A DNA stretch of 64,000 nt from contig CAVPQS010000065.1 in the NCBI GenBank assembly GCA_963707485.1, positions 654-64,653 on the forward strand, in the 5' to 3' direction. Made by a program: the position numbers and the translations under genes. Source of the DNA: an uncultured bacterium (lineage in GTDB: Bacteria; Zixibacteria; MSB-5A5; CAIYYT01). The notes under the pieces were generated by a model. It did not search any database. It saw nothing but the letters and a program-made list of their open reading frames with translations, and had not been told where the DNA came from. Of this stretch, positions 18,453 to 62,922 are shown piece by piece. How positions within the stretch are numbered: the first letter of the stretch is position 1; every line of letters begins with the position of its first letter.

Positions 18453-21400
18453 ATGAAAAAACTCGCATTGTTGGTCGTGAGTTTTGTCTACGTGATTTCC
18501 CTGTTGTCGGTTTCGGTATTCGCAGCCAAAGCAAAAGAATCTTCTGCGAGCGGAATTGACCCCAGGGATATCGTGGCGGAGAGCTCCAAGAATCCGCTGA
18601 CAGACATTCAGCTTGAGCAGTTGAATCGATCCGGTTCGAAGCCGGGAGCAGACATGGGCCAGACTTCACTGGGCTTCATGGCGTCTCCGGGCATAATGAT
18701 CGGTAACACCGGCTACGACATTCAGCATAACAGCCGCATGGGCCGCCAGATTGTCCAGGGCCCCAGCGGCCGCGTCCATTTTGTCTGGACACACAAATTG
18801 GCGGGCGTCGGTTCGACTATTCGCGAAATTCGTTATGGATCTTATGTTCCGGGAACGGGTTTCTTCGATCTTCCGGGCGGTCTGACGATTTCTGATGGTC
18901 GCGAGGGCCACATGTGCTCAATCGATCAATTCGGCAACCGGGCACTTCCCGTCTGGCGCTACGGGGCGACGTTTGCCGCCTATCGTTCGACTTCGGCACT
19001 CGACTTTGCAGCCGGCGCGGGCAGTTTCACGATCGTCGATTTGCCGTCAGCAGCGAACAACTGCGAAGGCATCTTCTGCGGCGCGATTCTTGAGCCATAT
19101 GTTTGGCCAGTGGTTGCGGCCGACGTTGACGGCGGCGGAAACCCAATTTCTCATATCGTTGCGATGGAGGGAAATTCAGGTTCGGAATACTCAGCCATGA
19201 CATACTACCGCGGTACCGGCGTCAGTTTCACCAACTACGGCACCTGCGGGATGTTCATGGACTCGACGACGGCGATCAGCTACACGATCGCACAGGATCC
19301 GGGCTCGAACAAGGTTGCGATTGCCTACGCCAAAGCGCGTACCGCTGCGACCAGCCGCGAGAACAATGATCTTGCTTATCGCATGTCAACGGACCTGGGC
19401 GTGACCTGGAGTCCGGTAGTTAACGTGACGAATTACGCATCCAGCGCCCTGGAGCGCGTTTCGCAGGAGACGTCCTCGATGTTCTCGGCGGATGGATGTT
19501 TCCACATCCTGTATACCGCCGCATTTTATGATTCGGCCGCGGCGCAGGTGGCCGATCAGGAAGCTAAACTTTATCATTGGGACGACTGTCAGAATTGTAA
19601 GTCCTTGATTCTTGACGCCAATAATTTCCATGCCAATTGTAACATGAAGGCGTTTGAGCATAACGTTTGCCGCATCAGCATGACGGAGTGCACGGTCGCC
19701 GCGACCAAGACGCTTTATGCCGTTTACACCCGTTACGTCGGCGACACCGACCCGGGCACGCCGGCCCTTACGGACTGCTCGGCTGGACAGTTCCCGAACG
19801 GCGAGATTTACGCGTCGGCTTCATCGACAGACGGCGAGACCTGGGGACCTCCGGTCAATTTGACTAATTCACGCACCGATAATTGCGCTTCGGGCGCATG
19901 CGATGACGACAACTTCTCGAGTGCGGCGATGTACAGCACAGATTCGCTGCGCATCGAGTACTTGAATGACAAGGATGCCGGTTCGGGTGTCGGCAACGAC
20001 GGCACCGCGGAGACTTACAGCCCGGTCATGTTCCTGAGTCATCCTTGCTTTGCGATGTCGACGTATCGCAGCTTGTCTTCAACACCGTCAGGGATTCTCT
20101 ATCCGTTCCATGCCGCAGCGAATGCCGCCGCCAACACGAATATTGTGCTGACGAACGCGGGCAACGCGACAGCAAACTGGACGCGGACGATTGCTTACGA
20201 TATCGGCTCGGGCTGGCTGACAGTTCCCGCGGCGGGTCTCGTAACAGCGGGATGCACGAATTCGCAGAATCTGGCCATTACTGCGGGACCGATCGCCACC
20301 GAGGGTTACTATTCGGCGACGATTACGTTCACGTATGAAGGACCGACATCCTTCGATGTTCCGGTAGAATTCTATGTATTCAACAGTTTCTTCCTGCCGC
20401 AGGATCAGGCGATCCGGACCTCGCTGGTTCGTATGAATGTGAACCAGGCGGGACGCAATTCGCATCAAGAGACCGGCCGCATGTTCTTCTCGTTCAACGA
20501 TGGACTTGAGCCGTTCTATGATGGTTCGCTGGTACTGGGTAATTCGGCCGCCAGTTTGAGCTGGTTGATATTCGAAGGCGGCGGCAATGTGCCGAGCGCT
20601 TCGAATCCGTTCGGATACCTTTATGCCTTGTCGAATACGACTTACGATTCGACCGGAAACGCGAATTACCGTTTTGCCTCAGGCAAGGGAACGAACCGCG
20701 ACTCCACTCTTGGATTCAGCGTCACTTATTATGCTCCGAAGCACCCGGATTCTTCGACATTCATCGCAGCGGTATACAAGCTGTACAAAGGCGCGAAGAA
20801 CCCATCGGGCAGCGTGACGAATTTGACCGTCGCGTACGCGGCGGACATCGACGTACCGGACGACAGTTCGGACAACATCGGCGGCGCGGATGCTTCGCGT
20901 CAGACGATTTACCAGAAGGGCCGTTATGCCCCGGATGATCTGCGTTTTGCGGGCGTTCGCGGTGTGATCAAGAACGGCAGTCCGGTCACCGGCGGATTCA
21001 ACTGGGAAAATGATGTAACCGTCTACCCGCTCGGCGGCTTCGAGAACGACACGCTTTGGAACAAGCTTCAGGCTGTGACCGGATACAGCGTAACGGACTC
21101 CACCGAAGATTTGAACTCCGTGCTTACAGTGGCGCGCGGGATCACGATCAACGGCAGCGCCAACGATACGCTGGATTTTGCGATCCTGTTCGTCGGAACC
21201 GACGGAATCCAGAGCCTGGCTAACTTCCAGACCCAGCTTGACAAAGCGATGGCCTGGGTATGCGGGCATGTTTATGCCGGCGCCGACGCTTGCGCAAATT
21301 GCGCTTGCGGTGATGCCGACAACACAGGCATCATCACAATCTCCGACGCCGTGTATTTGATCAACTACATCTTCGCGGGCGGACCGGCTCCGGTTCAGCT

Positions 21401-21503
21401 TTGCCTTGGCGACGCAGACGGCACCGGAATCATCACGATTTCCGACGCTGTGTTTTTGATCAACTACATCTTCGCCGGCGGACCGGCTCCTTCGGGCTGC
21501 TAA
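18453..21503 (+). CDS. Secreted BNR/Asp-box repeat protein (sialidase-like beta-propeller fold) with C-terminal tandem dockerin-like module
   Basis: 1016 aa; signal peptide; AAAGGAG Shine-Dalgarno; Asp-boxes STDLGVTW and SSTDGETW. The C-terminal 68 aa hold two repeats GDADNTGIITISDAVYLINYIFAGGPAP..C / GDADGTGIITISDAVFLINYIFAGGPAPSGC that resemble dockerin EF-hand repeats. Confidence 0.8.
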   Translation: MKKLALLVVSFVYVISLLSVSVFAAKAKESSASGIDPRDIVAESSKNPLTDIQLEQLNRSGSKPGADMGQTSLGFMASPGIMIGNTGYDIQHNSRMGRQIVQGPSGRVHFVWTHKLAGVGSTIREIRYGSYVPGTGFFDLPGGLTISDGREGHMCSIDQFGNRALPVWRYGATFAAYRSTSALDFAAGAGSFTIVDLPSAANNCEGIFCGAILEPYVWPVVAADVDGGGNPISHIVAMEGNSGSEYSAMTYYRGTGVSFTNYGTCGMFMDSTTAISYTIAQDPGSNKVAIAYAKARTAATSRENNDLAYRMSTDLGVTWSPVVNVTNYASSALERVSQETSSMFSADGCFHILYTAAFYDSAAAQVADQEAKLYHWDDCQNCKSLILDANNFHANCNMKAFEHNVCRISMTECTVAATKTLYAVYTRYVGDTDPGTPALTDCSAGQFPNGEIYASASSTDGETWGPPVNLTNSRTDNCASGACDDDNFSSAAMYSTDSLRIEYLNDKDAGSGVGNDGTAETYSPVMFLSHPCFAMSTYRSLSSTPSGILYPFHAAANAAANTNIVLTNAGNATANWTRTIAYDIGSGWLTVPAAGLVTAGCTNSQNLAITAGPIATEGYYSATITFTYEGPTSFDVPVEFYVFNSFFLPQDQAIRTSLVRMNVNQAGRNSHQETGRMFFSFNDGLEPFYDGSLVLGNSAASLSWLIFEGGGNVPSASNPFGYLYALSNTTYDSTGNANYRFASGKGTNRDSTLGFSVTYYAPKHPDSSTFIAAVYKLYKGAKNPSGSVTNLTVAYAADIDVPDDSSDNIGGADASRQTIYQKGRYAPDDLRFAGVRGVIKNGSPVTGGFNWENDVTVYPLGGFENDTLWNKLQAVTGYSVTDSTEDLNSVLTVARGITINGSANDTLDFAILFVGTDGIQSLANFQTQLDKAMAWVCGHVYAGADACANCACGDADNTGIITISDAVYLINYIFAGGPAPVQLCLGDADGTGIITISDAVFLINYIFAGGPAPSGC

Positions 21504-21639: not shown

Positions 21640-23793
21640 ATGGAATTTCAGATAATCATGAGACGCAGGTATGCGGTTATTGCCGCTTTCATCGTCGCCG
21701 TCATTTCCGCTTCGTTGTTTGCCGCGGATGATGATTCGCTCGACTATGAGCAGGTAATGAAATCGCATATGGCACGATTGTCGCGTTACGCGCAATCGCT
21801 GGCCAGCCTCGGCGCGACGGCAAATCAAAACGACTTCGATATCAACTATTATGACATCTCCATTCGCATTCACGCAGAGACAAACACGATTGCGGGCGAA
21901 GTCGGGTTTTCGGCGACAACGCTGCAGCCGCTTGATTTTGTCGAGTTAAACCTCGACCAGACAATGATTGTCGACTCCGTCACAACGTCCGGGGCAGCCA
22001 CAACATTCCAGCACCAAGGGAATATTTTGACGATTGTGGTGCCGCAACACGGCACTGGCGAATTCATTGGCGCGACGGTGTTCTATCACGGGAGGCCCAT
22101 TTTTGACGGGTTCGGGTCGTTTTCATTCAATAAACATAATGATCTGCCGCTGGTGTCGAGTTTATCAGAGCCATTTTATGCACGGACGTGGTGGCCCTGC
22201 AAGGATCATCCTTCCGACAAGGCCGACTCGGTGGATATGCGAGCGACGATTGACAGCCGCGTCACTGTCGTTTCGAACGGCACTTTGGCCGGCATAACAG
22301 CCAACGGCGACGGCACCAATACAACGCATTGGCATGAGTCGTATCCGATCGCGACCTATCTGGTGAGCCTGGCGATTGCCGATTACGAACATTATGCGGA
22401 TACGTTCCACTACGAAGGCGAATCGATGCCGGTAGATTTTTACATGTTGTCGGGACTGGTCGAACAGCATTTTGCGGTAAACGCCAAGGTCGTGGGTATG
22501 CTGGAATATTTCTCGTCGATATACGGGACCTATCCGTTCATCCGCGAGAAATACGGCCATGCACAATTTGCCTGGGGCGGCGGAATGGAACATCAGACTT
22601 GTTCATCGATCGGCGCATTCCCAGAGTCGCTGCTGGCGCATGAATTGGCGCATCAATGGTGGGGCGACATGATTACCTGCGGCACGTGGCACGACATTTG
22701 GTTGAACGAAGGATTTGCGCGCTATTCGGAAGCCCTGTGGCTGGAGCACGTCAATGGTCCGCAAGCGCTGCAACAATACATGAATTCGCTGACGCGACTC
22801 GACCAGCAGGTGTATGTGGCGGACACGACTAACGTCAACACCATGTTTGACCGCGTGGTGTATGACAAGGGCGCCATGGCGCTGCACATGCTGCGGTTCA
22901 ATTTAGGCGATGAGATGTTTTTCCGGGTCATTCGGGCGTACGGCGAATCGCGGCACAAGTACAACAGCGCAACGACGTCGGATTTTCAGGCTCTTTGCGA
23001 AGACATATCCGGCCGCGACCTGCAATACTTCTTTGATCAGTGGGTTTATCAGCCGTCAATGCCGGATTATCGATTCGGATTCTTCTCATATGAAACGGAT
23101 TCCGGTTGGGTGACCGATTTGCAGATGCAACAAGTCCAGACAGCGTATGAGTTATTCAAGACCGACATGGATGTGCGCTTTTGGTTTGCAAGTGATTCGT
23201 TGACGTTACGAGTGAGCAACGACCGGCGCAAGCAGAACTTCCGGTACCTGTTGCCGGACGAGCCGATCAAGTGCCGCATCGATCCGGACAATTGGATAAT
23301 CAACAAATACACGGAAGTCGCGCTCTTGCCGCAGGCGACCGTCGATACGTTGCCGACGGCGGCGGTCGGGGCGCCTTACAGTTTGCGGCTTTCGGCGATT
23401 GGCGGCGAGCCGCCGTTTACGTGGTCGGAGTTTGCGGCGTCGATGCCGGAAGGATTCGCAATCGACGACGACGGGCTACTGCACGGCGTTGCCGCCGACA
23501 CCGGCAGCTTTGAAATTTCCGTGCAGATTGCGGACTCGAGAATACCGGCAAATCGTGCGACCTCGAACTTGAAGTTGCAGATTCACAGAGCCCGGGGCAA
23601 TGTCGACGCTAATCCCGGCATGGCGTTGGGCGACATATTGTACTTCATTCGTTACCTCTATCGCGACGGTCCACCGCCCGCGGATTTGACGGCTGCGGAT
23701 GCCAATTGCGACGGCGATGTTGACATTCTCGATGTCATGACGATTCTCAACTTTCTGTATCAGCAAGGTCCCCTGCCCTGTTTCGAATCATAA
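21640..23793 (+). CDS. M1-family zinc metallopeptidase (aminopeptidase N-like) with Ig-like domain and C-terminal dockerin-like module
   Basis: GGMEH (GAMEN-like) and HELAHQWWGD...LNEGFARY (HExxH-x18-E). Signal peptide (MRRRYAVIAAFIVAVISASLFAA). The C-terminus has two dockerin-like repeats (GDILYFIRYLYRDGPPP; DANCDGDVDILDVMTILNFLYQQGPLPC). Exact start is uncertain (21610, 21640 or 21658). Confidence 0.8.
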   Translation: MEFQIIMRRRYAVIAAFIVAVISASLFAADDDSLDYEQVMKSHMARLSRYAQSLASLGATANQNDFDINYYDISIRIHAETNTIAGEVGFSATTLQPLDFVELNLDQTMIVDSVTTSGAATTFQHQGNILTIVVPQHGTGEFIGATVFYHGRPIFDGFGSFSFNKHNDLPLVSSLSEPFYARTWWPCKDHPSDKADSVDMRATIDSRVTVVSNGTLAGITANGDGTNTTHWHESYPIATYLVSLAIADYEHYADTFHYEGESMPVDFYMLSGLVEQHFAVNAKVVGMLEYFSSIYGTYPFIREKYGHAQFAWGGGMEHQTCSSIGAFPESLLAHELAHQWWGDMITCGTWHDIWLNEGFARYSEALWLEHVNGPQALQQYMNSLTRLDQQVYVADTTNVNTMFDRVVYDKGAMALHMLRFNLGDEMFFRVIRAYGESRHKYNSATTSDFQALCEDISGRDLQYFFDQWVYQPSMPDYRFGFFSYETDSGWVTDLQMQQVQTAYELFKTDMDVRFWFASDSLTLRVSNDRRKQNFRYLLPDEPIKCRIDPDNWIINKYTEVALLPQATVDTLPTAAVGAPYSLRLSAIGGEPPFTWSEFAASMPEGFAIDDDGLLHGVAADTGSFEISVQIADSRIPANRATSNLKLQIHRARGNVDANPGMALGDILYFIRYLYRDGPPPADLTAADANCDGDVDILDVMTILNFLYQQGPLPCFES

Positions 23794-24064: not shown

Positions 24065-24553
24065 TTAGCCGTGATATTTGTTGTGCCCGATAATTGTCAT
24101 AACCGAAACGATATCGACATTAAAGCGACTTCGGATAACGCGCATGACTTCGCGGTAGGATGATCCGGGCGGCGCTGCTTTGAGCAATTTGTCGATTTCG
24201 CTTCGGTGCGGCGAATTGCAAATCACGCAGCGGGCATTTGCCGCAGTGAATTTGAACTCGCCGGCGGCAAAGGTATTGAGTAATTTTCGGAGACGCCGCA
24301 GCGCACGCCGGTGCGAGTTGAGGATGAGCGCGAGCGGGAATCCCGACTGTCGGGCAAACTCCTGTAAAGTTGCGCCCTCGAAATGGACGCGGATAATGAT
24401 CTCGCGCTCCAACGGCGAAAGCCGGGCGAGCGCATCTTGCACCGCATCAATCCGGCGTTGTTGTATTTCGCGTTCGGCGGCATCAAGCTGTTGGTTCATC
24501 CAGAACGGCGTGACCGGCTTCCGGCGGGACCTGGGCAAATATCGTGTCGTCAT
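24065..24553 (-). CDS. Stand-alone sigma-70 region-4 (ECF-type sigma70_r4_2) HTH protein with C-terminal CxxC/HxxxH segment
   Basis: Region-4 signature LSPLEREIIIRVHFEGATLQEFARQSGFPLALILNSHRRALRRLRKLL, with no region 2 present. C-terminal CVICNSPH...HNKYH. Start chosen at ATG 24553, with AAAGGAG 9 nt upstream. Confidence 0.6.
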   Translation of the reverse strand: MTTRYLPRSRRKPVTPFWMNQQLDAAEREIQQRRIDAVQDALARLSPLEREIIIRVHFEGATLQEFARQSGFPLALILNSHRRALRRLRKLLNTFAAGEFKFTAANARCVICNSPHRSEIDKLLKAAPPGSSYREVMRVIRSRFNVDIVSVMTIIGHNKYHG

Positions 24554-24616
24554 GAATTGGTTCTCCTTTCCGGGCGCAATCAAACGCCGGAGCGGAGGCG
24601 AGTAAATCATGTGACT

Positions 24617-24682
24617 ATCGCATTGGGAGTCGCATGACCAAGGCGCGATGCGATATCAATTGCGATTGAAATGCGATTGAAT
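24617..24682. promoter_or_regulatory. Array of TGCGAT / ATCGCA hexamers including a tandem 11-nt repeat, in the divergent promoter region
   Basis: atcgca (24617-22), tcgcat (24630-35), gcgatgcgat (24645-54), tgcgattgaaa/tgcgattgaat tandem (24661-24682). Lies between the divergently transcribed sigma-r4 gene and the small-TM/CPBP genes. Confidence 0.3.
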
Positions 24683-24729
24683 TAGAATAGTGACGAAGGA
24701 TCACCAATTTAACCTCTGGGGAGAAAACG

Positions 24730-24930
24730 ATGCAGGAAGTTAACAACGACGACAAGAAAACGTACAGCTACACATTCGGCGGCAACATGACCGGCGGCTT
24801 GATTGTGCTTGGCATCGGCGTATTTTTCTTGCTCGTTAATCTTGATGTACTGCCTCCGCTTCGCACAACATGGCCGTTGATTTTGATCGTGGTGGGAGCA
24901 GCGCTGATCATCTCGAAGATGCGCCGCTGA
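24730..24930 (+). CDS. Small membrane protein (2 predicted TM helices)
   Basis: 66 aa; GGLIVLGIGVFFLLVNL and WPLILIVVGAALII hydrophobic segments; GGAGA Shine-Dalgarno-like. Directly precedes the CPBP protease gene. Confidence 0.45.
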   Translation: MQEVNNDDKKTYSYTFGGNMTGGLIVLGIGVFFLLVNLDVLPPLRTTWPLILIVVGAALIISKMRR

Positions 24931-25634
24931 CTCCGCCGGAATCCACACCGGAGTCGCAGCCGCGTCTGACGCTGATCAGTTATCTGGTGCTCGGACTATT
25001 GGCTATTATCTGGCCTTTTAGTTCGTTTGTATTTCTGGATTCACAGCTTGAACTGGCGAGCGAAGTTGTCGATCCCATTCTTGAAATCTACCTGCCCACG
25101 ATTCTCATCCAATTGCTGATCATGGCGGCAATCGTCATTGCCATCCGTTCGGAGCAGGCGCGCCCCGGCGACATCGGAGTCAAGAATTTCTCGCGCTGGA
25201 GTTTTCCGCAGGCGATTGCATTCTTGCTGCTGGCGAATATCGTATTGTCGTCGGTGCAGATCACGATTGCGGCGCAGTCGCCGGACGCCTTCACGGAATT
25301 CGGCTCTCTGCTGCCAAAGACAATGGCGGAGAAGTCAATCTGGGTCGTGCTGTGCGCGATTATCGCGATCTGCGAGGAGGTCACGTTTCGCGGCTACATC
25401 TTAACGCGAGTGACGCAAATCGCACGCGGTCGGATTTGGATTGGCGTGTTGGTGTCGACGCTGGCGTTCGCGAGCGGACATCTCTACCAGGGTTTGGGCG
25501 GATTCGTCTTGATATTCGTGTACGGGCTGATGTTTTGCGGGTTGTGTTTGTACACCGGTTCGCTTTACCCCGCGATTATCGCGCATTTCTTGCAGGACGC
25601 CGGTGTCCTGTTCCTGCCCGACACATTCAAATAA
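24870..25634 (+). CDS. CPBP family intramembrane glutamic metalloprotease (CAAX protease / Abi family)
   Basis: Motif 1 CEEVTFRGY (EExxxR), motif 2 FASGHLYQG, motif 3 AHFLQD; multiple TM segments. The N-terminal boundary is uncertain: the ATG at 24870 overlaps the small ORF by 61 nt, and a later non-ATG start is possible. Confidence 0.7.
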   Translation: MAVDFDRGGSSADHLEDAPLTPPESTPESQPRLTLISYLVLGLLAIIWPFSSFVFLDSQLELASEVVDPILEIYLPTILIQLLIMAAIVIAIRSEQARPGDIGVKNFSRWSFPQAIAFLLLANIVLSSVQITIAAQSPDAFTEFGSLLPKTMAEKSIWVVLCAIIAICEEVTFRGYILTRVTQIARGRIWIGVLVSTLAFASGHLYQGLGGFVLIFVYGLMFCGLCLYTGSLYPAIIAHFLQDAGVLFLPDTFK

Positions 25635-55771: not shown

Positions 55772-56551
55772 CTACATTGCAAATTTGAAATTGATGAAGT
55801 AACAATCGAGGGCTTTCAACTCGGCCGCCCACTTTGGCTTGACCAGAAGCAGCAAATCGTAGAGCGTGGCGCCGACACCGACAAAGTACTCGGATTGGAC
55901 GTCGTCGCCATCAACGTACTTGATCCCGTACCCCAAGCCGATGGAAACAACTTTGGGGGTATAGGTCGCCCACCAGATGAAATTGGCGAATTCCTCGTTT
56001 TTGCCGGCGAGGAATTTGTTGTCGAATTTCCAGGGCGGTCGATGGAGCGAGAATTTCATGTCGAAATTGTTCGGGTATTTGTCTTTCAGCAGCGCGAAAC
56101 CGATGCCACCATAGTCGAGAACGATATCGCTGACGCCGAAACCCTGATCGGGATTGAAGGCATCCATCGGGACCTCGACCAGCGTCAGGATGATCGCCGA
56201 TTGAATCGCGCCGTACTTTACCTGCTTTGACTCGGGCATCTTCAGCATCCGAAACAACCAGCGAAAACCATCAGCCAATTTGTATCCGGCGTAGAAGTGA
56301 CTTATTTCATCCGTAAAGGCAACATTGTCATGAAGTTCGTCTTTGAAATGAAACTTCCCGTCCGGCGCGCCCCAGGTGTTCTTGAAATAGAAATAAGCGC
56401 CGGTACCGACGACGATGTTGCCGATCAGCATGTTGCGGTCGACGTGCGACTTCGTGTGCGTGGTCGAGTCGGGTGCAAGCGATTCGGACCGCGCAACATT
56501 GTAGCCGGAACAAAGAAGCGACGCGATCACGAGACAGCGCAGGAGCAACAT
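55772..56551 (-). CDS. Hypothetical secreted or outer-membrane protein, immediately downstream of the dockerin-bearing paralog
   Basis: Signal peptide MLLLRCLVIASLLCSG; ends FKFAM. No recognised family. 9 nt downstream of the 56560 gene stop. Confidence 0.45.
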   Translation of the reverse strand: MLLLRCLVIASLLCSGYNVARSESLAPDSTTHTKSHVDRNMLIGNIVVGTGAYFYFKNTWGAPDGKFHFKDELHDNVAFTDEISHFYAGYKLADGFRWLFRMLKMPESKQVKYGAIQSAIILTLVEVPMDAFNPDQGFGVSDIVLDYGGIGFALLKDKYPNNFDMKFSLHRPPWKFDNKFLAGKNEEFANFIWWATYTPKVVSIGLGYGIKYVDGDDVQSEYFVGVGATLYDLLLLVKPKWAAELKALDCYFINFKFAM

Positions 56552-56559
56552 GTTCGATT

Positions 56560-58773
56560 TTACTGCGACTGGCACGGCAGCGGCGTGCGCTCATAGAGGA
56601 AATTCACGAATGACATCAGATCGATCAGGTTAAAGCGCTGATTGCAGTCGGCATCAATTTGGCGCAGGGGCGTGACGATGGGATCGTCGCGATAAAGTAT
56701 GCGCACCATGTGCAGCAGGTCGATCAAATCAAAGACACCGTCGTTGTCGGCGTCGCCGCTGACCGACAGAGTAGCCGGCGTGATGACAAGTGGCAGCATG
56801 AGGTGCTCTTCAAGGAAGCCATACAAGTCGATTAGGATTTCAACCTGCGCGGACGGGTCGAAGGGCGTCGTCGAGTACAGTGTTACATATTGACTGGCGC
56901 CGACGCCGAGATCGAAACTCGAAGTCGAAAAGCTGATACTTTGCACTCGGGACGAAGTCAAGTTGATCGTCTGAACGAAATCGGTTAGGTTCGTAAATTC
57001 GAGCGTCAGTGATGATGGCGCCTCGCTGGAGGGTTCCGAGATTTCGATTACATCGGCGAGCTCAGTCAAGTCGGCATTCATTTGCGTGCCGTCGAGCGAA
57101 ATTGATGTTCCCGACAATTCGCCAAGCGGCTGATCGAGATTGACCGCGTACAACAAGTGCTGCGCCAAACTTGCGAGTGTCGTGCCGCCCGCACCGAAGT
57201 TCGCACCATACTCGATGTCGGTCAATATCAGCGGGTCGAGTTTGCCTTCGGAGTTTGACAGGGTACCATCATCCTCGACGTCTATATAAAAACACTCGCG
57301 CCGAGCGCCTGCGATGGTTAGCGCTATTCCGGTCGGGCCAGCAGCATCACCGGCATACTTCAACATAGAGCCATCGTGCACGAAGCGGCGAACACGCGTA
57401 TCTCCTGCTGTTCCGAAAGCGAGCTCTGCGTCCGGTTGCGTGGATGGAACGTCAAGATCAGGCAGATATCTCTCTACTACATCAATGCCGCCGCCAAGGA
57501 AGCGACCGCCCCAGTCGCGACCGAGGGCACGTGTGCCACGAACGACGACTGCGGACTCGCCGGAAATCTTGACTACAGGATTAAGCGTTTCGTTCTGCTG
57601 GAGAGATCGCAACATCTGCACGGTTTCAAGAAATCGACTAACGCCGTTTTTCGTCGAGGTCCCCTGCGCTACCACGAGCGCGGCCCTGAGCACGATGCTG
57701 TCGCCCGGTTCAAGATTGACGGGTAGAGTATTCAACAAGAAGCGGTAGTCGCGCGAGAGTTCGTTGATCCAGCCGGCGCCGGCTTCGGGGTCGCCATCGA
57801 AAGGAAATGTCGTCGGAAAAGTCGTTATCGGGTTGAAGTATGGCTGGCCATTGGGGCGCAATCCGCGGATAAGATTGAGGACCTCGGTCAAAGTATCGAC
57901 TCGGACGCACTCAGGAAATAGGAACGAGCAAGGATAATAGTAGTTCATCGAGGCGGCGAGCGTGGTCAGAAACGTCATACCCACGACCGGCGGAAACTTG
58001 CCGTACTCCGAATCGAAGTCGGCTTCGTCGTAAACGTAGGCGCATTGCAGATCAGCGCGCGAGCCGATGCGATCGTTCCGGTTGAAGCCAATGTCGGGAT
58101 CAACATAAGTCGAGACGATGCAGGAATCGATCGGGCCGTCGCCGCGATTGGTAATCGTGTAATCCATAATTACGACCTGGGCGAGCATGGTGTCGAACAA
58201 CTGGTAGTCATTGTCCCAAGTGTGCGCGAAAAGTTTGACTTCGACATCAAGCGGAAGCGTCCCGGCAAATCCGTCGAAGACATGCTGGGAGGAGTCGGCG
58301 TCGTTGAACATGGTGTAGAGGACCTGGGAGCCTTTGATCAGCGGGCGTCCGAGGGCGTCGACCGGCGCGCCGTCCGAAGCGGGCCAATTGCGATAATCGT
58401 CGCTGACGAGATAGTTCTCGCCGCGCGTGATTTTGTATGGTCGAAATGTTGTGTCGGCGGGGAGACCGTTGGATCCAATCGGGCCGGGTGAAAATTCACT
58501 GTCATCGCCCGAAATCGTGAGCCGCCATTCGCCGTCTTTCTTCCCCGCGACCCAGATTCCGCCGCCGCCCATTAATCCTCTGAAGGAGTCGCGCGGATAA
58601 TACAGCCCGGCAAAACCGTTGCGGGTGGTTTCGAAATCGATGCCGAAACTGCCGGTGTTGAGGATGAAGAATGCGAGCGCGCCGTCGTCGATGACTTTGG
58701 CTTGCGGATAGACGGCAAGGGCGGATGCGCACAGAAGCAGCGTGGCAAGGATGGCGATTAGGAGATTCCTCAT
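56560..58773 (-). CDS. Large secreted protein (737 aa), paralog of the T9SS-CTD protein at 4450..7515, with C-terminal tandem dockerin-like module
   Basis: Signal peptide. The N-terminal ~300 aa are homologous to the 1021-aa protein (see 4450..7515). C-terminus GDADNDGVFDLIDLLHMVRILYRDDPIV...DADCNQRFNLIDLMSFVNFLYERTPLPCQSQ. Confidence 0.75.
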   Translation of the reverse strand: MRNLLIAILATLLLCASALAVYPQAKVIDDGALAFFILNTGSFGIDFETTRNGFAGLYYPRDSFRGLMGGGGIWVAGKKDGEWRLTISGDDSEFSPGPIGSNGLPADTTFRPYKITRGENYLVSDDYRNWPASDGAPVDALGRPLIKGSQVLYTMFNDADSSQHVFDGFAGTLPLDVEVKLFAHTWDNDYQLFDTMLAQVVIMDYTITNRGDGPIDSCIVSTYVDPDIGFNRNDRIGSRADLQCAYVYDEADFDSEYGKFPPVVGMTFLTTLAASMNYYYPCSFLFPECVRVDTLTEVLNLIRGLRPNGQPYFNPITTFPTTFPFDGDPEAGAGWINELSRDYRFLLNTLPVNLEPGDSIVLRAALVVAQGTSTKNGVSRFLETVQMLRSLQQNETLNPVVKISGESAVVVRGTRALGRDWGGRFLGGGIDVVERYLPDLDVPSTQPDAELAFGTAGDTRVRRFVHDGSMLKYAGDAAGPTGIALTIAGARRECFYIDVEDDGTLSNSEGKLDPLILTDIEYGANFGAGGTTLASLAQHLLYAVNLDQPLGELSGTSISLDGTQMNADLTELADVIEISEPSSEAPSSLTLEFTNLTDFVQTINLTSSRVQSISFSTSSFDLGVGASQYVTLYSTTPFDPSAQVEILIDLYGFLEEHLMLPLVITPATLSVSGDADNDGVFDLIDLLHMVRILYRDDPIVTPLRQIDADCNQRFNLIDLMSFVNFLYERTPLPCQSQ

Positions 58774-58837
58774 TACGAAGGAATATACGTCTCAGCCGTA
58801 AGGATGCAAAATGTTGATTTGAAGAAGAAAGATGATC

Positions 58838-61800
58838 TTACTTGAGCAGGACCAGTTTGCTGACCAGGGAAATGCCGCCCGCTTGCAAGCGTACGAAGTA
58901 AATGCCGGTGCCGAGCGTGCGTCCGAAATTGTCGTCGCCGTCCCAGGTGGCATAATACGATCCGACGCGCTGATTGCCGGAGAAGATCGTTTTGACCTGC
59001 TGGCCAAGGATGTTGAGTATTTCGAGAGAGACTTCGCCGGAATTGGCAAGGCTGTATGGAATCGCAGTTGAAATGTTGAACGGATTCGGAAAATTCTGTT
59101 CGAGCTTGTATTCACTCGGCAAAACCGGGCTATCGACCGGATAGACGGGCGTCGCAGCGCCGACGGCGATTGATCCGCCCAGACTGTGCGCTGCAAAAGT
59201 CATCAGAGTCGAATCACACACTGTCGCGGACGGACTGATGGTGCATTCGCCTTCGATGGCGGAATCCTGCACGGTCAGGTAGACATAGGCGATTGGTCCG
59301 GCGCCGACGGGAATCGCGAGCGATTCATTTTGCGACTCGATAGCAACCTCGGTGGCGCCGAGAGTTTGCGATGAAATGATGCTGAAATCGAGTTTGCCCA
59401 TGGCGCGTCCTGCGGCAGTAACGGAATCGACGCGAAGAGCGGCATCGTCAAATTGCAGGGCGATGGCCATGCTGTCGACGGGAACAAAATTGTGGAGGGC
59501 AATTTCCATTTCAGTGGCGCTGCCGGGAATGGCGTTGCCGGATGATAGACTTAGTGTATCGACGGGGACTACGTTCAAGGTTATCGGCAGCAAGAACGGC
59601 GAATTCCCTGCCTGAGCGGAGGTAATGGTCAATTGGCCGGTGTATTCCCCGGCGGCAAGTGATGTCGCATCGACAATAACTTGCGCTGTTGTGCTGTCGC
59701 CGCCATTGGCGGGATTGATCGAGAGCCACGGTTGATTTGCAACCGCCGTCCAGTTCAGGCCGTCGGCGCCGCAGTTGTTGATTATGACATCTATGGTGTC
59801 GAAGTCCGCGATGCCGCTGCGCGAGATCGCATTCAGAATTAACGGTGAAGTACAGATCGCCGGTGGCGGTGGAGTTACGCTTGCATGAACAGTCAAGTTT
59901 TTGGGCGAATTGTAGGCGTTGGGATCGGAGATCGACAACGTGGTGTAATGTTCGCCTTTGGTGAGAATTCCGGGTTGAATGCCGATGTTGACGACCGCGT
60001 CGCCGAAGCCATCTTCGGTATCGATTGTAACCCAGATCGCGTCGGCGGCAATGAGCCAGTCGATTGTTCCGGCGCCGGTGTTGAAAATCACGAGTTCTTG
60101 AGTGGCAATCGTCGAGGCATTGGCCGCAAAACTAAAATGCACAGTATCGGGATCGACGGAAATCATCGGAACATCGGTGGAGTGCGACAGATTAACGGTA
60201 AATTGTTGCGGCGAATTGACCGCTTGCGGCGAGGTAATGCTCAAGTTTGCCGTGTAGTCACCGGTGCCGGGGAGCGAATCGGGGTAGAAAATCAAGTCAA
60301 TTGCCGATGGCGCAGCTCCTGAGAGCTGCGACAGTCCCAGCCAATTCGGCTTGCCGGTAATTGTCCAGTCTACCGTGCCTGAGCCGGAATTCTCAATCAT
60401 GAAATATTTGTCATCCGGCGGCGGTGTTCCGAGTTGCGTCTCGACGGATACCGAGCCGGGCGTGATTTTCAACGTCGGCGCGGTGATTGTCAAAGCGACA
60501 ACCGCTGTGCGCGAGGAATCCTTGCCGGTCGCATCAGCGATCGTGATTCTGCCGGAGTATTCGCCGTACGCGAGTCCGGCTATATTGACAGAGACAATCG
60601 CCGTCGTCGGCGCAGCGCCGGAAGTCGGCGTTACCGAGAGCCAGGCCTGATTATCGGTTGCGGTCCAGTTGAGAATGCCGTAGCCGGTGTTGTTGATGAG
60701 CAAACTTTGCGAGGCGGGATTGCTGCCGCCGAGTTGCGCGTTGAACTGAAACGAATTCGGCGAAATGACAATAGCGGGCGCACCGTACTCGGTGATGCGC
60801 GCGAAGACATCGAAGCTGCCGTTGCGGTCGTCAGTCCACGTGTAGTAGATGTTGATGCCATCCATCGTGACATTCGGAAATGACTGCGTGCTTGTGGTCG
60901 CATCGGTGTTGACGCGGTAATTGCCGCCGAGGATGTTGCCGTCGGCTTTGAAATACTGCGCGAAAATATCGTTGTTCCCCTGCCGGTCATCGCGCCAGGC
61001 GGTGATGAAATTGCCGAAATAATCCATGCCGACCACGACCTCGGCTTGCGAGCCGTTGGCGCCGTCGCTGTTGATGCGATAGTTCGCGCTGCGGCTGTCG
61101 CCGTTCGCCCAATAGTTGCGGCCATAAACGTCGGCATTATTCGGATAGTTACCGTTGCGATAATCGATCCAGACGACGGTGAAATTACCGGCGTAATCGC
61201 AGGCGACATCGGGGACGACACATTTGTTGCCGGTAAGATTGTCGCTGATCAGAAAATTCGTGTTTTGCGCGACGCCGGAGGCGTTGTAGCGCTGGCCCAT
61301 AATCAAGTCGAGCCCCTGCCGGTTGTCGTACCAGACCACGACGAAATCGCCGTCGCCATCGACTGCAACTTTGGGGTTGTGTTGATAGGCGGCGCCCGCG
61401 TCATCGTTGATGCGGAAATTCACGCCGAGTTTGGCGCCGGATTTATGATAGCGCTGTCCGTAGACATCGTAATTGCCGTTGCGGTTGTCCTCCCAGACGA
61501 GGACGTAGTTGCCGAAATCATCGGCGTCGATATCCTGCCAGCCTTGTGTTTCCACGCCAAAATCGTCGTTGATTTTGGTATTCGCTGCGGCTGCCGAGCC
61601 GTCGGCATTGTAACGCTGGCCGTAGATGTCGGCATTGAAGGGATAGCCGGTGACGCGGTAGTCCTGCCACGCGACGACGAATTTGCCGAGTTGGTCTTTC
61701 ATCATCGAGGGGCGGAATTGTTCGTTGCCGATCGGGTCGTCGTTGACGCGGCGGTTTGTTCCCTGCCGCGTGCCGAGCCGGTCGAAAAGCTGGATGTAAA

Positions 61801-62005
61801 TATCATTATCGCCGTTGCGTTTGTCGTACCAGCAGACGACGAAGTTGCCCTCGAGGTCGGTGGCGATATTGGAGTAGCCCTGATAGCTCATTCCGAAGTC
61901 GTCGTTGACGCGGAAGTCCGGGACATTGCCGGCGTCCGAGTCAAGGAACCAGAGAATGCAGGTCAGGAAAAAGCAGAGTAATGCCAAACGCGCTTTCATG
62001 CGCAT
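58838..62005 (-). CDS. T9SS-sorted surface protein: 7-bladed beta-propeller repeat + 4 Ig-like (BACON-like) domains + cohesin-like module + Por_Secre_tail CTD
   Basis: Signal peptide. Seven ~50-aa repeats (RxNDD...GNFVVVWxDxRNGNxD(I/V)YGQRY). Repeated ~100-aa Ig-like domains (NTGxGxLxWT). A ~145-aa segment AIPGSATEMEIALHNFVPVDSMAIALQFDDAALRVDSV...GAGPIAYVYLTVQ fits the cohesin pattern. Canonical T9SS CTD: LEQNFPNPFN...LEILNILGQQV...WDGDD...GIYFVRL...KLVLLK. Confidence 0.8.
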   Translation of the reverse strand: MRMKARLALLCFFLTCILWFLDSDAGNVPDFRVNDDFGMSYQGYSNIATDLEGNFVVCWYDKRNGDNDIYIQLFDRLGTRQGTNRRVNDDPIGNEQFRPSMMKDQLGKFVVAWQDYRVTGYPFNADIYGQRYNADGSAAAANTKINDDFGVETQGWQDIDADDFGNYVLVWEDNRNGNYDVYGQRYHKSGAKLGVNFRINDDAGAAYQHNPKVAVDGDGDFVVVWYDNRQGLDLIMGQRYNASGVAQNTNFLISDNLTGNKCVVPDVACDYAGNFTVVWIDYRNGNYPNNADVYGRNYWANGDSRSANYRINSDGANGSQAEVVVGMDYFGNFITAWRDDRQGNNDIFAQYFKADGNILGGNYRVNTDATTSTQSFPNVTMDGINIYYTWTDDRNGSFDVFARITEYGAPAIVISPNSFQFNAQLGGSNPASQSLLINNTGYGILNWTATDNQAWLSVTPTSGAAPTTAIVSVNIAGLAYGEYSGRITIADATGKDSSRTAVVALTITAPTLKITPGSVSVETQLGTPPPDDKYFMIENSGSGTVDWTITGKPNWLGLSQLSGAAPSAIDLIFYPDSLPGTGDYTANLSITSPQAVNSPQQFTVNLSHSTDVPMISVDPDTVHFSFAANASTIATQELVIFNTGAGTIDWLIAADAIWVTIDTEDGFGDAVVNIGIQPGILTKGEHYTTLSISDPNAYNSPKNLTVHASVTPPPPAICTSPLILNAISRSGIADFDTIDVIINNCGADGLNWTAVANQPWLSINPANGGDSTTAQVIVDATSLAAGEYTGQLTITSAQAGNSPFLLPITLNVVPVDTLSLSSGNAIPGSATEMEIALHNFVPVDSMAIALQFDDAALRVDSVTAAGRAMGKLDFSIISSQTLGATEVAIESQNESLAIPVGAGPIAYVYLTVQDSAIEGECTISPSATVCDSTLMTFAAHSLGGSIAVGAATPVYPVDSPVLPSEYKLEQNFPNPFNISTAIPYSLANSGEVSLEILNILGQQVKTIFSGNQRVGSYYATWDGDDNFGRTLGTGIYFVRLQAGGISLVSKLVLLK

Positions 62006-62175: not shown

Positions 62176-62922
62176 TTGTACCCCACCCAACGGGTGGGTT
62201 TGGTCATCGAAGCGGCAAGTCTTGGTCCTTGGTCCGGCTTCCCGAAACGGCAGAATTGTCTCCTGCGGATAAATCAATCTCCAGCAATGTGTCGGGTATT
62301 TCCAGATAGTATTTGTAGCTCGACCACTTCCAATTTTCCGGCGATCCAACCAGTTTTCTCTTTACAGGATTCATGTGACAATAGTTAACCTTGCGCCAAA
62401 CTTGATTTTCAGTCCTACAGTTGTGGTCAAAACACCGCCTCAGCCAAAGGGCAATGCGTTTTTGTCCATCCCTGACAACTTCCAAATTCCGGATGAGATC
62501 AGAGTGCGATGCCCTTAGTTTCTCTACTATCTGCACCGCGATGCGTCGCTTAAGTTCGCCGATTTCGGGGCCGAGTTTCATCAATTTCCGCGGAACAATA
62601 ACTAAGTGCACATGCTCGGGCATGATCACATATGACAATAAGCGCGCCTGCGATTCTTGACAAAAACGCACGATTTCATCCAAGACTATTTGGCGGAAAA
62701 CATCATTCGTGAGTATTGGTACCTTTTTGTGCGTGCAAAAAGTCACGAATCGAGCGCGGCCATCATGGTCGTAGTGTTTGAGATGCATACTACAAATTGC
62801 GCTTTGGATGCGAATGAAGGCAATCACATTTTTAGCGGTGAATTTTACATCTGCTCACTGCTTCATCGTTATTTGAGATATGCCGATTCGATCGCTAGGC
62901 CCACCCGTTGGGTGGGGTACAA
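62176..62922. mobile_element. REP-flanked RAYT unit: perfect 23-nt inverted repeats (each an internal hairpin) bracketing a tyrosine transposase gene
   Basis: Left ttgtaccccacccaacgggtggg (62176-62198). Right cccacccgttgggtggggtacaa (62900-62922), its exact reverse complement. Each contains the CCCACCC-N3-GGGTGGG hairpin. Additional direct repeats GTTCCGGGG(G/A)AGGGGGAAGGA(A)TG at 62105-62131 and 62923-62946. Confidence 0.65.
62204..62788 (-). CDS. REP-associated tyrosine transposase (RAYT; IS200/Y1-HuH transposase-like)
   Basis: HuH motif YVIMPEHVHLVIV; C-terminal RAYT signature FDHNCRTENQVWRKVNYCHMNPVKRKLVGSPENWKWSSY (catalytic Tyr). Lower GC than the surroundings. The start (Met1 or Met14) is uncertain. 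Confidence 0.75.
   Translation of the reverse strand: MHLKHYDHDGRARFVTFCTHKKVPILTNDVFRQIVLDEIVRFCQESQARLLSYVIMPEHVHLVIVPRKLMKLGPEIGELKRRIAVQIVEKLRASHSDLIRNLEVVRDGQKRIALWLRRCFDHNCRTENQVWRKVNYCHMNPVKRKLVGSPENWKWSSYKYYLEIPDTLLEIDLSAGDNSAVSGSRTKDQDLPLR

What the first reader, a model, noticed from the sequence alone, without database searches (positions are those of the whole stretch)
56560..62005. Candidate cohesin-dockerin display system anchored by type IX secretion
The 1055-aa protein at 58838..62005 combines a canonical T9SS C-terminal sorting domain with a ~145-aa module whose pattern matches cohesin domains (AIPGS..E.EIAL.NF.PVDS.AIALQFDDAALRV.SV ... GAGPIAYVYL.V). Cargo with that sorting domain is normally covalently attached to the cell surface.

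The adjacent gene (56560..58773) and two genes about 35 kb away (18453..21503 BNR protein; 21640..23793 M1 peptidase) end in tandem dockerin-like EF-hand repeats (GDADNDGVFDLIDLLHMVRILY; GDADNTGIITISDAVYLINYIF; DANCDGDVDILDVMTILNFLY).

A T9SS-anchored cohesin scaffold recruiting dockerin-tagged enzymes would be a cellulosome-like architecture built on a different anchoring machinery. I am not aware of it as an established system.
Basis: partly seen in the sequence, partly recalled or inferred. Interest (0 to 1): 0.85.

Follow-up and report, generated by a model that had tools for sequence, protein, structure and literature searches.

The report
Cohesin–dockerin surface display in Zixibacteria
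An uncultured Zixibacteria genome encodes a secreted protein with a previously unannotated cohesin module next to a type IX secretion tail, always beside a dockerin-tagged partner gene, so this Gram-negative lineage probably hangs some exoproteins on its surface cellulosome-style, an arrangement predicted once before in another phylum but never tested.

Summary
All four ORFs exist as stated.

- **P1 (58838..62005):** it has a T9SS type A sorting domain (TIGR04183 32.4 bits, cutoff 23).
- **Cohesin module (about residues 815-950):** it scores below Pfam's threshold alone (15.1 vs 24.1 bits). A profile of its relatives hits only cohesins in the PDB (6e-10). A confident AlphaFold model (pLDDT 90.7) matches only cohesins among the top 50 solved structures.
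- **Dockerin tails:** P2, P3 and P4 end in paired EF-hand dockerin repeats.

New comparative evidence:
- The order P1, P2, DUF2279 is conserved in 16 related MAG loci. Each has one cohesin beside the CTD and a dockerin on the neighbour.
- P2's body belongs to a large Zixibacterial exoprotein family whose tails are either CTD (108) or dockerin (11), never both.
- The window also encodes a PorV/PorQ-family protein.
- The dockerins fall into two subtypes. Only P2 and P4 share the subtype linked to this cohesin.

Binding, surface attachment and outer-membrane passage of the CTD-less dockerin proteins remain inferred.

It is not a cellulosome proper: one cohesin, no CAZyme cargo. A CTD-bearing cohesin scaffoldin was already proposed in silico for Cloacimonadota in 2021 (PMC8542988), so the concept is not new. 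It is new for Zixibacteria, and the gene pairing is new.

The parts
58838..62005 (-). P1: 1055-aa secreted adaptor with a signal peptide, about 7 propeller-like repeats, BACON/Ig-like modules, one cohesin and a T9SS CTD
   Evidence: ORF. BACON_2 E 8e-23 and the CTD hits. Six clear repeats of about 55 aa plus a probable seventh. NCBI names it only 'FlgD immunoglobulin-like domain containing protein'.
59156..59563 (-). Cohesin module of P1 (about residues 815-950)
   Evidence: Pfam Cohesin 15.1 bits, sub-threshold. 21 of 28 relatives carry Pfam Cohesin. Orthologue P0004 passes the cutoff at 25.3 bits. Profiles hit only cohesins in the PDB. AF2 model pLDDT 90.7. Top 50 Foldseek PDB hits are all cohesins.
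58838..59092 (-). T9SS type A C-terminal sorting domain of P1 (residues 972-1055, plus stop codon)
   Evidence: TIGR04183 32.4 bits against cutoff 23. Por_Secre_tail 25.5 bits. FlgD_ig 34.4 bits.
60806..61918 (-). N-terminal repeat region of P1 (about residues 30-400), a probable 7-bladed beta-propeller
   Evidence: Six clear repeats of 54-58 aa with the motif G.F.V.W.D.R.G..D.Y.Q, plus a probable seventh read from the sequence. TIGR04275 beta-propeller repeat hit. The fold itself is inferred.
59576..60793 (-). BACON-type Ig-like modules of P1 (about residues 405-810)
   Evidence: BACON_2 E 8e-23 in 3 stretches, and BACON E 1.7e-6.
56560..58773 (-). P2: 737-aa dockerin-tagged exoprotein of unknown activity, the conserved neighbour of P1
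   Evidence: ORF. Orthologue directly downstream of P1 in 16 related MAG loci. About 40 homologues, all unannotated; the few that carry an organism name are Zixibacteria. N-terminal 380 aa are homologous to the protein at 4450..7515 (E 2e-49).
56563..56757 (-). Dockerin of P2 (residues 673-737), subtype A
   Evidence: Dockerin_1 21.1 bits when scanned alone. Family profile hits only dockerins in the PDB, best 6kg9_A at 1.5e-4. 10 of 11 orthologues hit Dockerin_1. Subtype assignment.
55772..56575 (-). DUF2279 protein, third member of the conserved triad; its start overlaps the end of P2 by 16 nt
   Evidence: PF10043 E 9e-7. Conserved directly after P2 in 16 related MAG loci. Role unknown.
21640..23793 (+). 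P4: M1 aminopeptidase with a C-terminal subtype A dockerin (about 23599..23790), a candidate second cargo of the P1 cohesin
   Evidence: Peptidase_M1 E 1e-30 and Dockerin_1 23.0 bits (27.3 for the tail alone). Same subtype as the P2 dockerins.
18453..21503 (+). P3: 1016-aa exoprotein with a C-terminal subtype B dockerin (about 21309..21500); its partner cohesin is probably elsewhere in the genome
   Evidence: Dockerin_1 28.2 bits for the tail alone. Subtype B. NCBI names it 'dockerin type I repeat-containing protein'.
3407..4441 (-). PorV/PorQ-family outer-membrane protein (a T9SS component)
   Evidence: NF033709 164.7 bits against cutoff 90.
4450..7515 (-). 1021-aa paralogue of P2's body that carries a CTD-like tail instead of a dockerin
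   Evidence: BLASTP against P2 gives E 2e-49. CTD-like tail found with my own HMM at E 4e-6 and by weak NCBIfam hits. In its family 108 members have a CTD tail, 11 a dockerin tail and none both.

Best explanation
P1 is exported by the type IX secretion system through its C-terminal sorting domain. It is probably left on the cell surface, with its single cohesin closest to the membrane and its propeller and BACON modules pointing outwards. The cohesin binds, in a calcium-dependent way, the subtype A dockerin at the C-terminus of the co-transcribed neighbour P2, and possibly that of the M1 aminopeptidase P4. Exoproteins that lack a sorting domain of their own would thereby be tethered to the surface. 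In this lineage the dockerin is an alternative to the CTD: one is indirect, non-covalent display through a cohesin adaptor, the other direct T9SS attachment.

Shown: the identity of the domains, the conserved gene pairing, the tail swapping, and a T9SS component in the same genome.

Inferred: the physical cohesin-dockerin interaction, attachment rather than release of P1, and the route by which P2 and P4 cross the outer membrane.
For: Cohesin identity:
- An exhaustive HMMER search with the module finds 29 proteins. Of the 28 besides its own fragment, 21 carry Pfam Cohesin, 13 Por_Secre_tail and 9 CHU_C.
- Orthologue P0004 has the same architecture and passes the Cohesin cutoff.
- Profiles hit only cohesins in the PDB: 6e-10 for the 30-row profile, 8e-4 for the close subfamily alone.
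- The AF2 model has pLDDT 90.7, and the top 50 PDB structural matches are all cohesins.

Dockerins.

T9SS: P1's CTD is above the TIGR04183 cutoff, and a PorV/PorQ-family gene lies in the window.

Linkage:
- P1, P2 and DUF2279 are in the same order in 16 related MAG loci, with P1 at 39-79% identity. Every P1 orthologue has exactly one cohesin beside its CTD, and every P2 orthologue has a C-terminal dockerin.
- The P1-P2 gap is 64 nt with no terminator-like site, and P2 overlaps DUF2279 by 16 nt.

Tail equivalence:
- In the family that shares P2's body, 108 members have a CTD, 11 a dockerin and none both.
- An M1 peptidase like P4 in a Ca. Eisenbacteria MAG carries a CTD instead of a dockerin.

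Other:
- Subtype A dockerins occur only on P2 orthologues and on P4.
- Further dockerin-tagged genes (a lipase, a beta-helix protein) lie next to P1 orthologues in other MAGs.
Against: - No binding test or complex prediction could be run.
- The cohesin and the P2 dockerin do not co-diverge beyond what their host proteins predict (partial Mantel r = -0.08, p = 0.74).
- Exposed residues on the canonical 8-3-6-5 binding sheet are no more conserved than those on the opposite sheet (0.45 vs 0.50, p = 0.72). Both tests are crude.
- P2, P3 and P4 have Sec signal peptides (read from the sequence; no predictor was run) but no CTD, so their passage across the outer membrane is unexplained.
- Many type A CTD proteins in other T9SS organisms are released rather than attached (my own knowledge).
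- Dockerin-like modules are known to occur in organisms with no cohesin (Peer et al. 2009, cited in PMC8542988; paper not held).
- The window's own cohesin and P2's dockerin are each below Pfam's curated cutoff when scored alone.
Confidence: 0.58

Rival explanations
1. Piggyback export. P1 binds the dockerin of P2 (and perhaps P4) in the periplasm. The folded cohesin-dockerin complex is then carried through the T9SS translocon on P1's CTD. On this reading the dockerin serves as an indirect secretion signal as well as a tether.
For: - P2, P3 and P4 have signal peptides but no CTD.
- Their paralogues or orthologues with the same bodies carry a CTD, so the same kind of protein is expected outside the cell.
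- The cohesin sits immediately beside the CTD in every P1 orthologue.
- P1 and P2 are probably co-transcribed.
- T9SS moves folded cargo (my own knowledge of the field).
Against: - No precedent for non-covalent hitchhiking through T9SS is known to me.
- A type II secretion system or vesicles could export the dockerin proteins instead, and their presence could not be checked.
- Nothing in the sequence separates this reading from simple extracellular docking.
Confidence: 0.12
2. P1 is secreted by T9SS but released rather than attached. With P2 it forms a soluble or substrate-bound complex (the propeller and BACON modules binding a polymer) instead of a cell-surface display.
For: - Only a PorV/PorQ-family gene was found. 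No PorU sortase or PorZ was identified in the window.
- In other T9SS organisms many type A CTD proteins end up in the medium (my own knowledge).
Against: - The window is only 64 kb, so the absence of PorU means little.
- The cohesin directly beside the CTD mirrors the membrane-proximal cohesins of anchoring scaffoldins.
Confidence: 0.15
3. The cohesin and the dockerins are not partners. The dockerin-like EF-hand pairs act as calcium-dependent stabilising or glycan-binding tails, or bind cohesins encoded elsewhere. P1's cohesin acts as a stalk or binds something else. The P1-P2 adjacency reflects a shared process, not direct binding.
For: - Both co-evolution and conserved-face tests were negative.
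- The cohesin is the fastest-diverging part of P1 (mean pairwise distance 0.64, against 0.39 for the N-terminal part).
- Dockerin-only genomes are known (cited in PMC8542988 and PMC10266427).
Against: - One cohesin and one dockerin are strictly co-conserved in adjacent genes across 16 related MAG loci, down to 27-39% identity.
- Subtype A dockerins are restricted to P2 orthologues and P4.
- The best solved matches for the cohesin and for the P2 dockerin are the two halves of one known complex, CaCohA2 and CaDoc0917.
Confidence: 0.15

Closest known systems
Predicted cellulosome-like complex of Ca. Stygibacter (Cloacimonadota), Williams et al. 2021, PMC8542988
   Same: It is also from an FCB-group diderm known only from MAGs. 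It has a cohesin-bearing protein with a T9SS C-terminal domain proposed to attach it to the cell's own surface. Signal-peptide-bearing hydrolases, including peptidases, carry C-terminal dockerins. Cellulose is not the proposed substrate.
   Different: The Stygibacter scaffoldin is 3,755 aa with tandem cohesins and CBM2/CBM3 modules. P1 has one cohesin, a propeller and BACON modules, and no CBM was detected. Here the cohesin gene is paired with a dedicated dockerin gene in a conserved triad, and CTD/dockerin tail swapping is documented; neither point appears in the passages of that paper I read. Both systems are in silico only.
Single-cohesin anchoring proteins of the Clostridium (Acetivibrio) thermocellum cellulosome (SdbA, OlpA, OlpC)
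   Same: Each has one cohesin placed next to a cell-envelope anchoring module and tethers dockerin-bearing partners to the surface. The OlpA and OlpC cohesins are among the structural matches (3ul4_A, 4dh2_A).
   Different: They are anchored by SLH repeats to a Gram-positive wall, not by a T9SS CTD to an outer membrane. Their partners are cellulosomal scaffoldins or CAZymes. They have no propeller or BACON modules. (The clostridial proteins' architecture is from my own knowledge.)
C. acetobutylicum CaCohA2-CaDoc0917 type I cohesin-dockerin complex (PDB 6kgc-6kgf, 6kg9)
   Same: It is the best solved match for both halves. The cohesin model matches 6kgf_C at E 1.2e-10 and 6kgc_A at TM 0.81, and the module profile hits 6kgc_A at 5.8e-10. 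The P2 family profile hits the dockerin 6kg9_A at 1.5e-4.
   Different: Sequence identity is only about 16%. The Zixibacterial dockerins carry a conserved Cys in the second calcium loop and a C-terminal Pro-Cys, probably forming a disulfide.
'Planctosome' of freshwater Planctomycetes (Andrei et al. 2019, PMC6461901)
   Same: It is a predicted non-cellulolytic cohesin-dockerin complex in a diderm, with peptidases as cargo, inferred from MAGs.
   Different: Its proposed anchor is a lamin-tail domain rather than a T9SS CTD, it includes an adaptor protein carrying both a dockerin and a cohesin, and it comes from a different phylum.

Membership tests
Cohesin (Pfam PF00963) | Sequence match to the family profile at or above the curated cutoff (24.1 bits) | tested here: inconclusive
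   The window module alone scores 15.1 bits, E 0.027, below the cutoff, although Cohesin is its only hit. Orthologue P0004, linked to the window module at E 9e-20, scores 25.3 bits over profile positions 3-138 of 139. 21 of 28 relatives hit Cohesin, best E 2.4e-61.
Cohesin (Pfam PF00963) | Nine-stranded beta-sandwich (jelly-roll) fold like solved cohesins | tested here: met
   AF2 model has pLDDT 90.7 and pTM 0.78, is all-beta, and has 11 strand elements (some strands read as two). The top 50 Foldseek PDB hits are all cohesins, with probability 1.00 and TM up to 0.81. Sequence profiles hit only cohesins.
Cohesin (Pfam PF00963) | Binds a dockerin | not testable with these tools
The indirect tests were uninformative. 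Conserved adjacency to a dockerin gene supports binding.
Dockerin type I (Pfam PF00404) | Two tandem segments of about 22 residues, each a calcium-binding loop followed by a helix, with starts about 33 residues apart | tested here: met
   Loops of the form D-x-[DN]-x-[DNT]-G-x-[IVF]-x-x-x-D followed by hydrophobic helices occur in P2, P3 and P4, with starts 33 residues apart. The first loop of P4 is degenerate, two residues short.
Dockerin type I (Pfam PF00404) | Profile match at or above the curated cutoff (22.9 bits) | tested here: met
   Tails scanned alone: P3 28.2, P4 27.3, P2 21.1. Whole proteins: P4 23.0, P3 22.1, P2 15.0. So P3 and P4 pass and P2 is marginal, but 10 of 11 P2 orthologues hit the family (best 2.6e-6), and the P2 family profile's nine best PDB hits are all dockerin-bearing chains, with generic EF-hand proteins only lower down.
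T9SS type A cargo (TIGR04183 / PF18962) | C-terminal sorting domain at the extreme C-terminus, above the curated cutoff | tested here: met
   P1 scores 32.4 bits on TIGR04183 (cutoff 23) at residues 972-1052 of 1055. The Pfam model scores 25.5, slightly under its cutoff of 27.
T9SS type A cargo (TIGR04183 / PF18962) | The organism encodes the T9SS machinery | tested here: inconclusive
   A PorV/PorQ-family protein is in the window (164.7 bits, cutoff 90). The core genes (SprA, PorK/L/M/N, PorU, PorZ) are not in the 64 kb and the whole genome could not be read. The 1021-aa gene upstream of the porV-like gene is a CTD cargo, not a recognisable PorU.
T9SS type A cargo (TIGR04183 / PF18962) | CTD cleaved and cargo covalently attached to the surface | not testable with these tools
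   This needs proteomics or biochemistry.
Cellulosome (sensu stricto) | Scaffoldin with multiple cohesins that integrates several enzymes | tested here: not met
   There is exactly one cohesin in P1 and in each of its 16 orthologues. Multi-cohesin CTD proteins exist among more distant relatives (P0005-P0009), but none was found in this window.
Cellulosome (sensu stricto) | Dockerin-bearing glycoside hydrolases acting on plant cell wall, plus a cellulose-binding CBM | tested here: not met
   The cargo is an M1 aminopeptidase, a BNR-like protein and a protein of unknown family. No CBM or GH family was detected. Related MAGs tag a lipase and a beta-helix protein.

The most novel reading that the evidence does not exclude
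The cohesin-CTD protein acts as a secretion chaperone. It captures dockerin-tagged, CTD-less exoproteins in the periplasm and carries them as a folded non-covalent complex through the type IX translocon. The dockerin would then be a transferable, indirect T9SS export-and-display signal. That would explain why homologous exoproteins in this lineage carry either a CTD or a dockerin but never both.
Probability: 0.12. Interest if true: 0.85.

Novelty: new variant of a known kind. Interest (0 to 1): 0.55.

Why it matters
Cohesin-dockerin display has been shown experimentally only in Gram-positive cellulosome producers, where anchoring uses SLH repeats or sortase.

Here a widespread uncultured sediment and soil phylum appears to couple the same protein glue to the type IX secretion system. 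It uses it for peptidases, lipases and unknown exoproteins rather than cellulases.

The conserved P1-P2 gene pair gives a minimal two-protein system that could be expressed and tested directly.

The CTD/dockerin tail swap raises a concrete question: how do dockerin-tagged proteins without a sorting domain cross an outer membrane?

It also shows that divergent cohesins are missed by routine annotation. NCBI names P1 after its FlgD-like fold only. Cohesin-dockerin systems in FCB-group bacteria are therefore probably under-counted.

Tried and rejected
1. A first AlphaFold run on a two-sequence alignment gave pLDDT 27 and was discarded.
2. phmmer of the cohesin segment alone against the PDB found nothing. 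The word-indexed homologue search found one protein only. The exhaustive HMMER search was needed.
3. A partial Mantel test for cohesin/dockerin co-divergence across 17 gene pairs (the window and 16 related loci) gave r = -0.08, p = 0.74, so it was uninformative.
4. A test of conservation on the putative binding sheet against the opposite sheet showed no difference. It was crude, because strand faces were assigned by hydrophobic alternation without coordinates.
5. I tested whether 4450..7515 is the PorU sortase, given its position upstream of the porV-like gene. I rejected this: it has no PorU, C25 or PDB match, and it is a CTD-tailed paralogue of P2.
6. I tested whether P3 belongs to the same family as 4450..7515. 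It does not.
7. The P2 body has no Pfam, NCBIfam or PDB family.
8. The promoter and terminator scan was at chance level. One 'terminator' hairpin lies inside the dockerin coding sequence.
9. The AFDB fold library was unavailable.
10. Literature searches for Zixibacteria with dockerin or type IX secretion, and for Latescibacteria with cohesin and dockerin, returned nothing in the held library.

Full report
**What is in the sequence.** The four ORFs named in the finding exist at the stated coordinates.
- P1 is at 58838..62005 on the minus strand, 1055 aa.
- P2 is at 56560..58773 on the minus strand, 737 aa.
- P3 is at 18453..21503 on the plus strand, 1016 aa.
- P4 is at 21640..23793 on the plus strand, 717 aa.

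All four begin with what look by eye like Sec-type signal peptides; no predictor was available. The window comes from a diderm bacterium: it encodes LptD, a TonB-dependent receptor, PolA, FtsK and ArgRS. P2 is 100% identical to an NCBI protein from a Candidatus Zixiibacteriota MAG. P1, P3, P4 and the DUF2279 protein are found in records of the same organism.

**T9SS sorting domain.** P1 ends in a type A C-terminal sorting domain. TIGR04183 scores 32.4 bits against a cutoff of 23, at residues 972-1052. Pfam Por_Secre_tail scores 25.5, just under its cutoff of 27. FlgD_ig scores 34.4. The window also encodes a PorV/PorQ-family outer-membrane protein at 3407..4441 (NF033709, 164.7 bits, cutoff 90). 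At least part of the T9SS apparatus is therefore present in this genome. The core translocon and sortase genes are not in these 64 kb, and I could not read the rest of the genome.

**The cohesin.** Scanned alone, residues about 812-957 give one Pfam hit, Cohesin. It is below threshold (E 0.027, 15.1 bits against 24.1) but covers profile positions 4-115 of 139. The single sequence finds nothing in the PDB, and the word-indexed search found only one homologue.

The exhaustive HMMER search of 1.8 billion representatives found 29 proteins at E up to 0.001. I scanned the 28 besides the module's own fragment:
- 21 carry Pfam Cohesin (best E 2.4e-61);
- 13 carry Por_Secre_tail;
- 17 carry FlgD_ig;
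- 9 carry CHU_C;
- 5 carry Dockerin_1.

Several contain the module two to four times in tandem. P0004, linked to the window module at E 9e-20, has P1's architecture, and its module passes the Cohesin cutoff over the whole profile (25.3 bits, positions 3-138 of 139).

A 30-row alignment of module instances hits cohesins in the PDB down to E 5.8e-10, and cohesins dominate the hit list. To exclude profile drift I repeated the search with only the five closest sequences. The best four hits are still cohesins; only the first is significant (4uyp_A, 7.9e-4) and the other three are at E 0.14-0.2.

AlphaFold on the 30-row alignment gave a confident all-beta model (pLDDT 90.7, pTM 0.78). The first attempt on two rows had failed. 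The 50 best Foldseek matches in the PDB are all cohesin modules, with probability 1.00 and TM up to 0.81. They are mostly type I, and include the single cohesins of OlpA and OlpC. The module is a divergent cohesin. NCBI's annotation does not recognise it and names P1 'FlgD immunoglobulin-like domain containing protein'.

**The dockerins.** All three C-termini contain two EF-hand-like segments whose starts are 33 residues apart.
- Scanned alone, the tails score 28.2 bits (P3), 27.3 (P4) and 21.1 (P2) on Dockerin_1, whose cutoff is 22.9.
- For P2 the family evidence settles it. A profile of 11 orthologues matches the PDB only through its last 60 or so residues. Its best hits are all dockerins (top hit 6kg9_A, 1.5e-4), with generic EF-hand proteins only lower in the list.
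- 10 of 11 P2 orthologues hit Dockerin_1.
- The first loop of P4 is degenerate.
- Nearly all of these dockerins share a Cys in the second calcium loop and a C-terminal Pro-Cys, which suggests a disulfide.

**Comparative evidence that the modules work together.** A scan of one genome per species found P1 relatives in 18 loci (a nineteenth matched only the CTD). They come from MAGs labelled Zixiibacteriota, 'uncultured Ignavibacteria' (probably a loose label) or unclassified.

In 16 related MAG loci (15 from that scan plus L002, the contig that encodes P0004) the order P1, P2, DUF2279 is the same as in the window. P1 identity ranges from 79% down to 39%, and P2 identity from 74% down to 27%. Every P1 orthologue has exactly one cohesin module directly before its CTD. 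Every adjacent P2 orthologue keeps a C-terminal dockerin. In the window the P1-P2 gap is 64 nt with no terminator-like site, and P2 overlaps DUF2279 by 16 nt, which fits a single transcript.

**An unexpected second line of evidence.** I tested the 1021-aa gene at 4450..7515, directly upstream of the porV-like gene, as a possible PorU sortase. It is not one. Instead its N-terminal 380 residues are homologous to P2's body (32% identity, E 2e-49). It belongs to a large family with 3,889 hits; the members that carry an organism name are almost all Zixibacteria.

Among the window protein and its 120 best relatives, the C-terminal tail is CTD-like in 108, a dockerin in 11, both in none, and missing in 2 truncated sequences. 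In a Ca. Eisenbacteria MAG (L020), the M1 peptidase that matches P4's body at 40% identity likewise ends in a CTD rather than a dockerin. Within homologous exoproteins the dockerin and the T9SS CTD are therefore mutually exclusive alternatives. That is what one expects if both deliver the protein to the same place.

The dockerins I hold fall into two subtypes.
- Subtype A (…RILYRDxP…DxNCDxRFxLxDL…) occurs on 16 of the 17 P2 family members examined (the most distant one is too divergent to classify) and on P4.
- Subtype B (…SDAVYLINYIFxGGxAP, two nearly identical halves) occurs on P3. It also occurs on a class-3 lipase and a beta-helix protein next to P1 in other MAGs, and on the dockerin-tailed paralogues of 4450..7515.

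By association, P1's cohesin is the partner of subtype A, that is P2 and perhaps P4. P3 probably docks to a different cohesin encoded outside the window. P1 has one cohesin, so it is a monovalent adaptor, not a multi-enzyme scaffold. No CBM or glycoside hydrolase is involved. It is cellulosome-like in logic but fails the defining features of a cellulosome.

**Mechanism and its weak points.** My best reading has four steps.
1. P1 is exported by T9SS and probably retained on the surface.
2. Its membrane-proximal cohesin holds the dockerin of P2, and maybe that of P4.
3. The propeller (6-7 repeats of about 55 aa) and the BACON modules project outwards, perhaps binding substrate.
4. The DUF2279 protein is part of the conserved unit, with an unknown role.

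What is shown is domain identity, gene linkage, tail swapping and a T9SS component. What is inferred is binding, attachment, and above all how P2, P3 and P4 cross the outer membrane, since they have signal peptides but no CTD.

Two cheap indirect tests for binding were uninformative. There was no excess co-divergence of cohesin and dockerin (partial r = -0.08, p = 0.74). There was no extra conservation on the canonical binding sheet. The cohesin is the fastest-diverging part of P1. That is compatible with rapidly evolving specificity, but also with a non-binding role.

The outer-membrane puzzle leaves room for a more novel reading. P1 might pick up its dockerin partner in the periplasm and carry it through the T9SS. 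I give that about 12%.

**Relation to what is known.** The idea of a cohesin scaffold anchored by a T9SS CTD is not new as a prediction. Williams et al. [quoted passage not shown] They also described dockerin-tagged GH18, GH57, S8 and C25 enzymes (PMC8542988). A peptidase-bearing 'planctosome' was proposed for Planctomycetes (PMC6461901).

Public MAG proteins that combine Cohesin, sometimes Dockerin_1, and a T9SS CTD are easy to find, including a three-gene cluster in L023. None of this has been tested experimentally. The held library has no paper mentioning Zixibacteria together with dockerin or type IX secretion.

Four things are new here:
- the phylum;
- the recognition of an unannotated divergent cohesin;
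- the conserved minimal cohesin/dockerin gene pair;
- the CTD/dockerin tail swap.

I rate it a new variant of a known kind, with moderate interest. The finding is still real, and it gives a compact system that can be tested.

Noticed in passing
window 3407..7515 (-): A PorV/PorQ-family gene (3407..4441) lies directly downstream of a 1021-aa exoprotein (4450..7515) with a CTD-like tail. It mimics the porU-porV arrangement, but the upstream gene is a T9SS cargo paralogous to P2, not a sortase. A TonB-dependent, SusC-like receptor follows at 7518..10376.
   Followed up: yes
relatives of window 4450..7515 (P0070-P0189): Within one exoprotein family the C-terminal tail is either a T9SS CTD (108 members) or a dockerin pair (11), never both. 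The dockerin forms are about 945 aa and the CTD forms about 1000 aa.
   Followed up: yes
L020 14202..17474 (-), a Ca. Eisenbacteria MAG: An M1 aminopeptidase 40% identical to P4's body carries a T9SS CTD where P4 carries a dockerin. This is a second case of tail swapping, across phyla.
   Followed up: partly
window 56563..56757, 21309..21500, 23599..23790, and dockerins in loci L002-L019: Nearly all of these dockerins have a Cys at position 4 of the second calcium loop (D-x-N-C-D) and a C-terminal Pro-Cys (C710 and C734 in the P2 family alignment). A disulfide is likely. I do not recall this feature in clostridial dockerins.
   Followed up: partly
L004 5815..7674, L010 6046..7884, L009 1836..5171 (-), L008 7732..8205 (-), L018 18395..20218 (-) and 22742..23029: Further dockerin-tagged genes sit within a few kb of P1 orthologues in other MAGs. 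They include a class-3 lipase (GHSLGG motif) with an N-terminal dockerin and a right-handed beta-helix protein with a C-terminal one. All are subtype B.
   Followed up: partly
L023 5556..17468 (GCA_030606335.1): Three adjacent genes in another MAG each combine Cohesin with a T9SS CTD, and two of them also carry a Dockerin_1. This suggests chains of self-assembling, surface-bound adaptors.
   Followed up: no
window 62204..62827 (-): An IS200/Y1 transposase-like gene lies immediately upstream of P1, and also in the independent Logan contig L001. In other MAGs the upstream neighbours differ.
   Followed up: no
L019 10001..13164: The P1 orthologue is split over three reading frames near its 5' end. 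This is either indel errors in a long-read MAG or a pseudogene.
   Followed up: no
window 55772..56575 (-): A DUF2279 protein (annotated as a predicted periplasmic lipoprotein) is conserved as the third gene of the P1-P2 unit in 16 related MAG loci. Its role is unknown.
   Followed up: partly
window 24065..25634: A small sigma-70 region-4 protein (24065..24610, -) lies next to a CPBP-family intramembrane protease (24870..25634, +), just downstream of the two dockerin genes P3 and P4. It may be a regulatory pair. It was not examined further.
   Followed up: no
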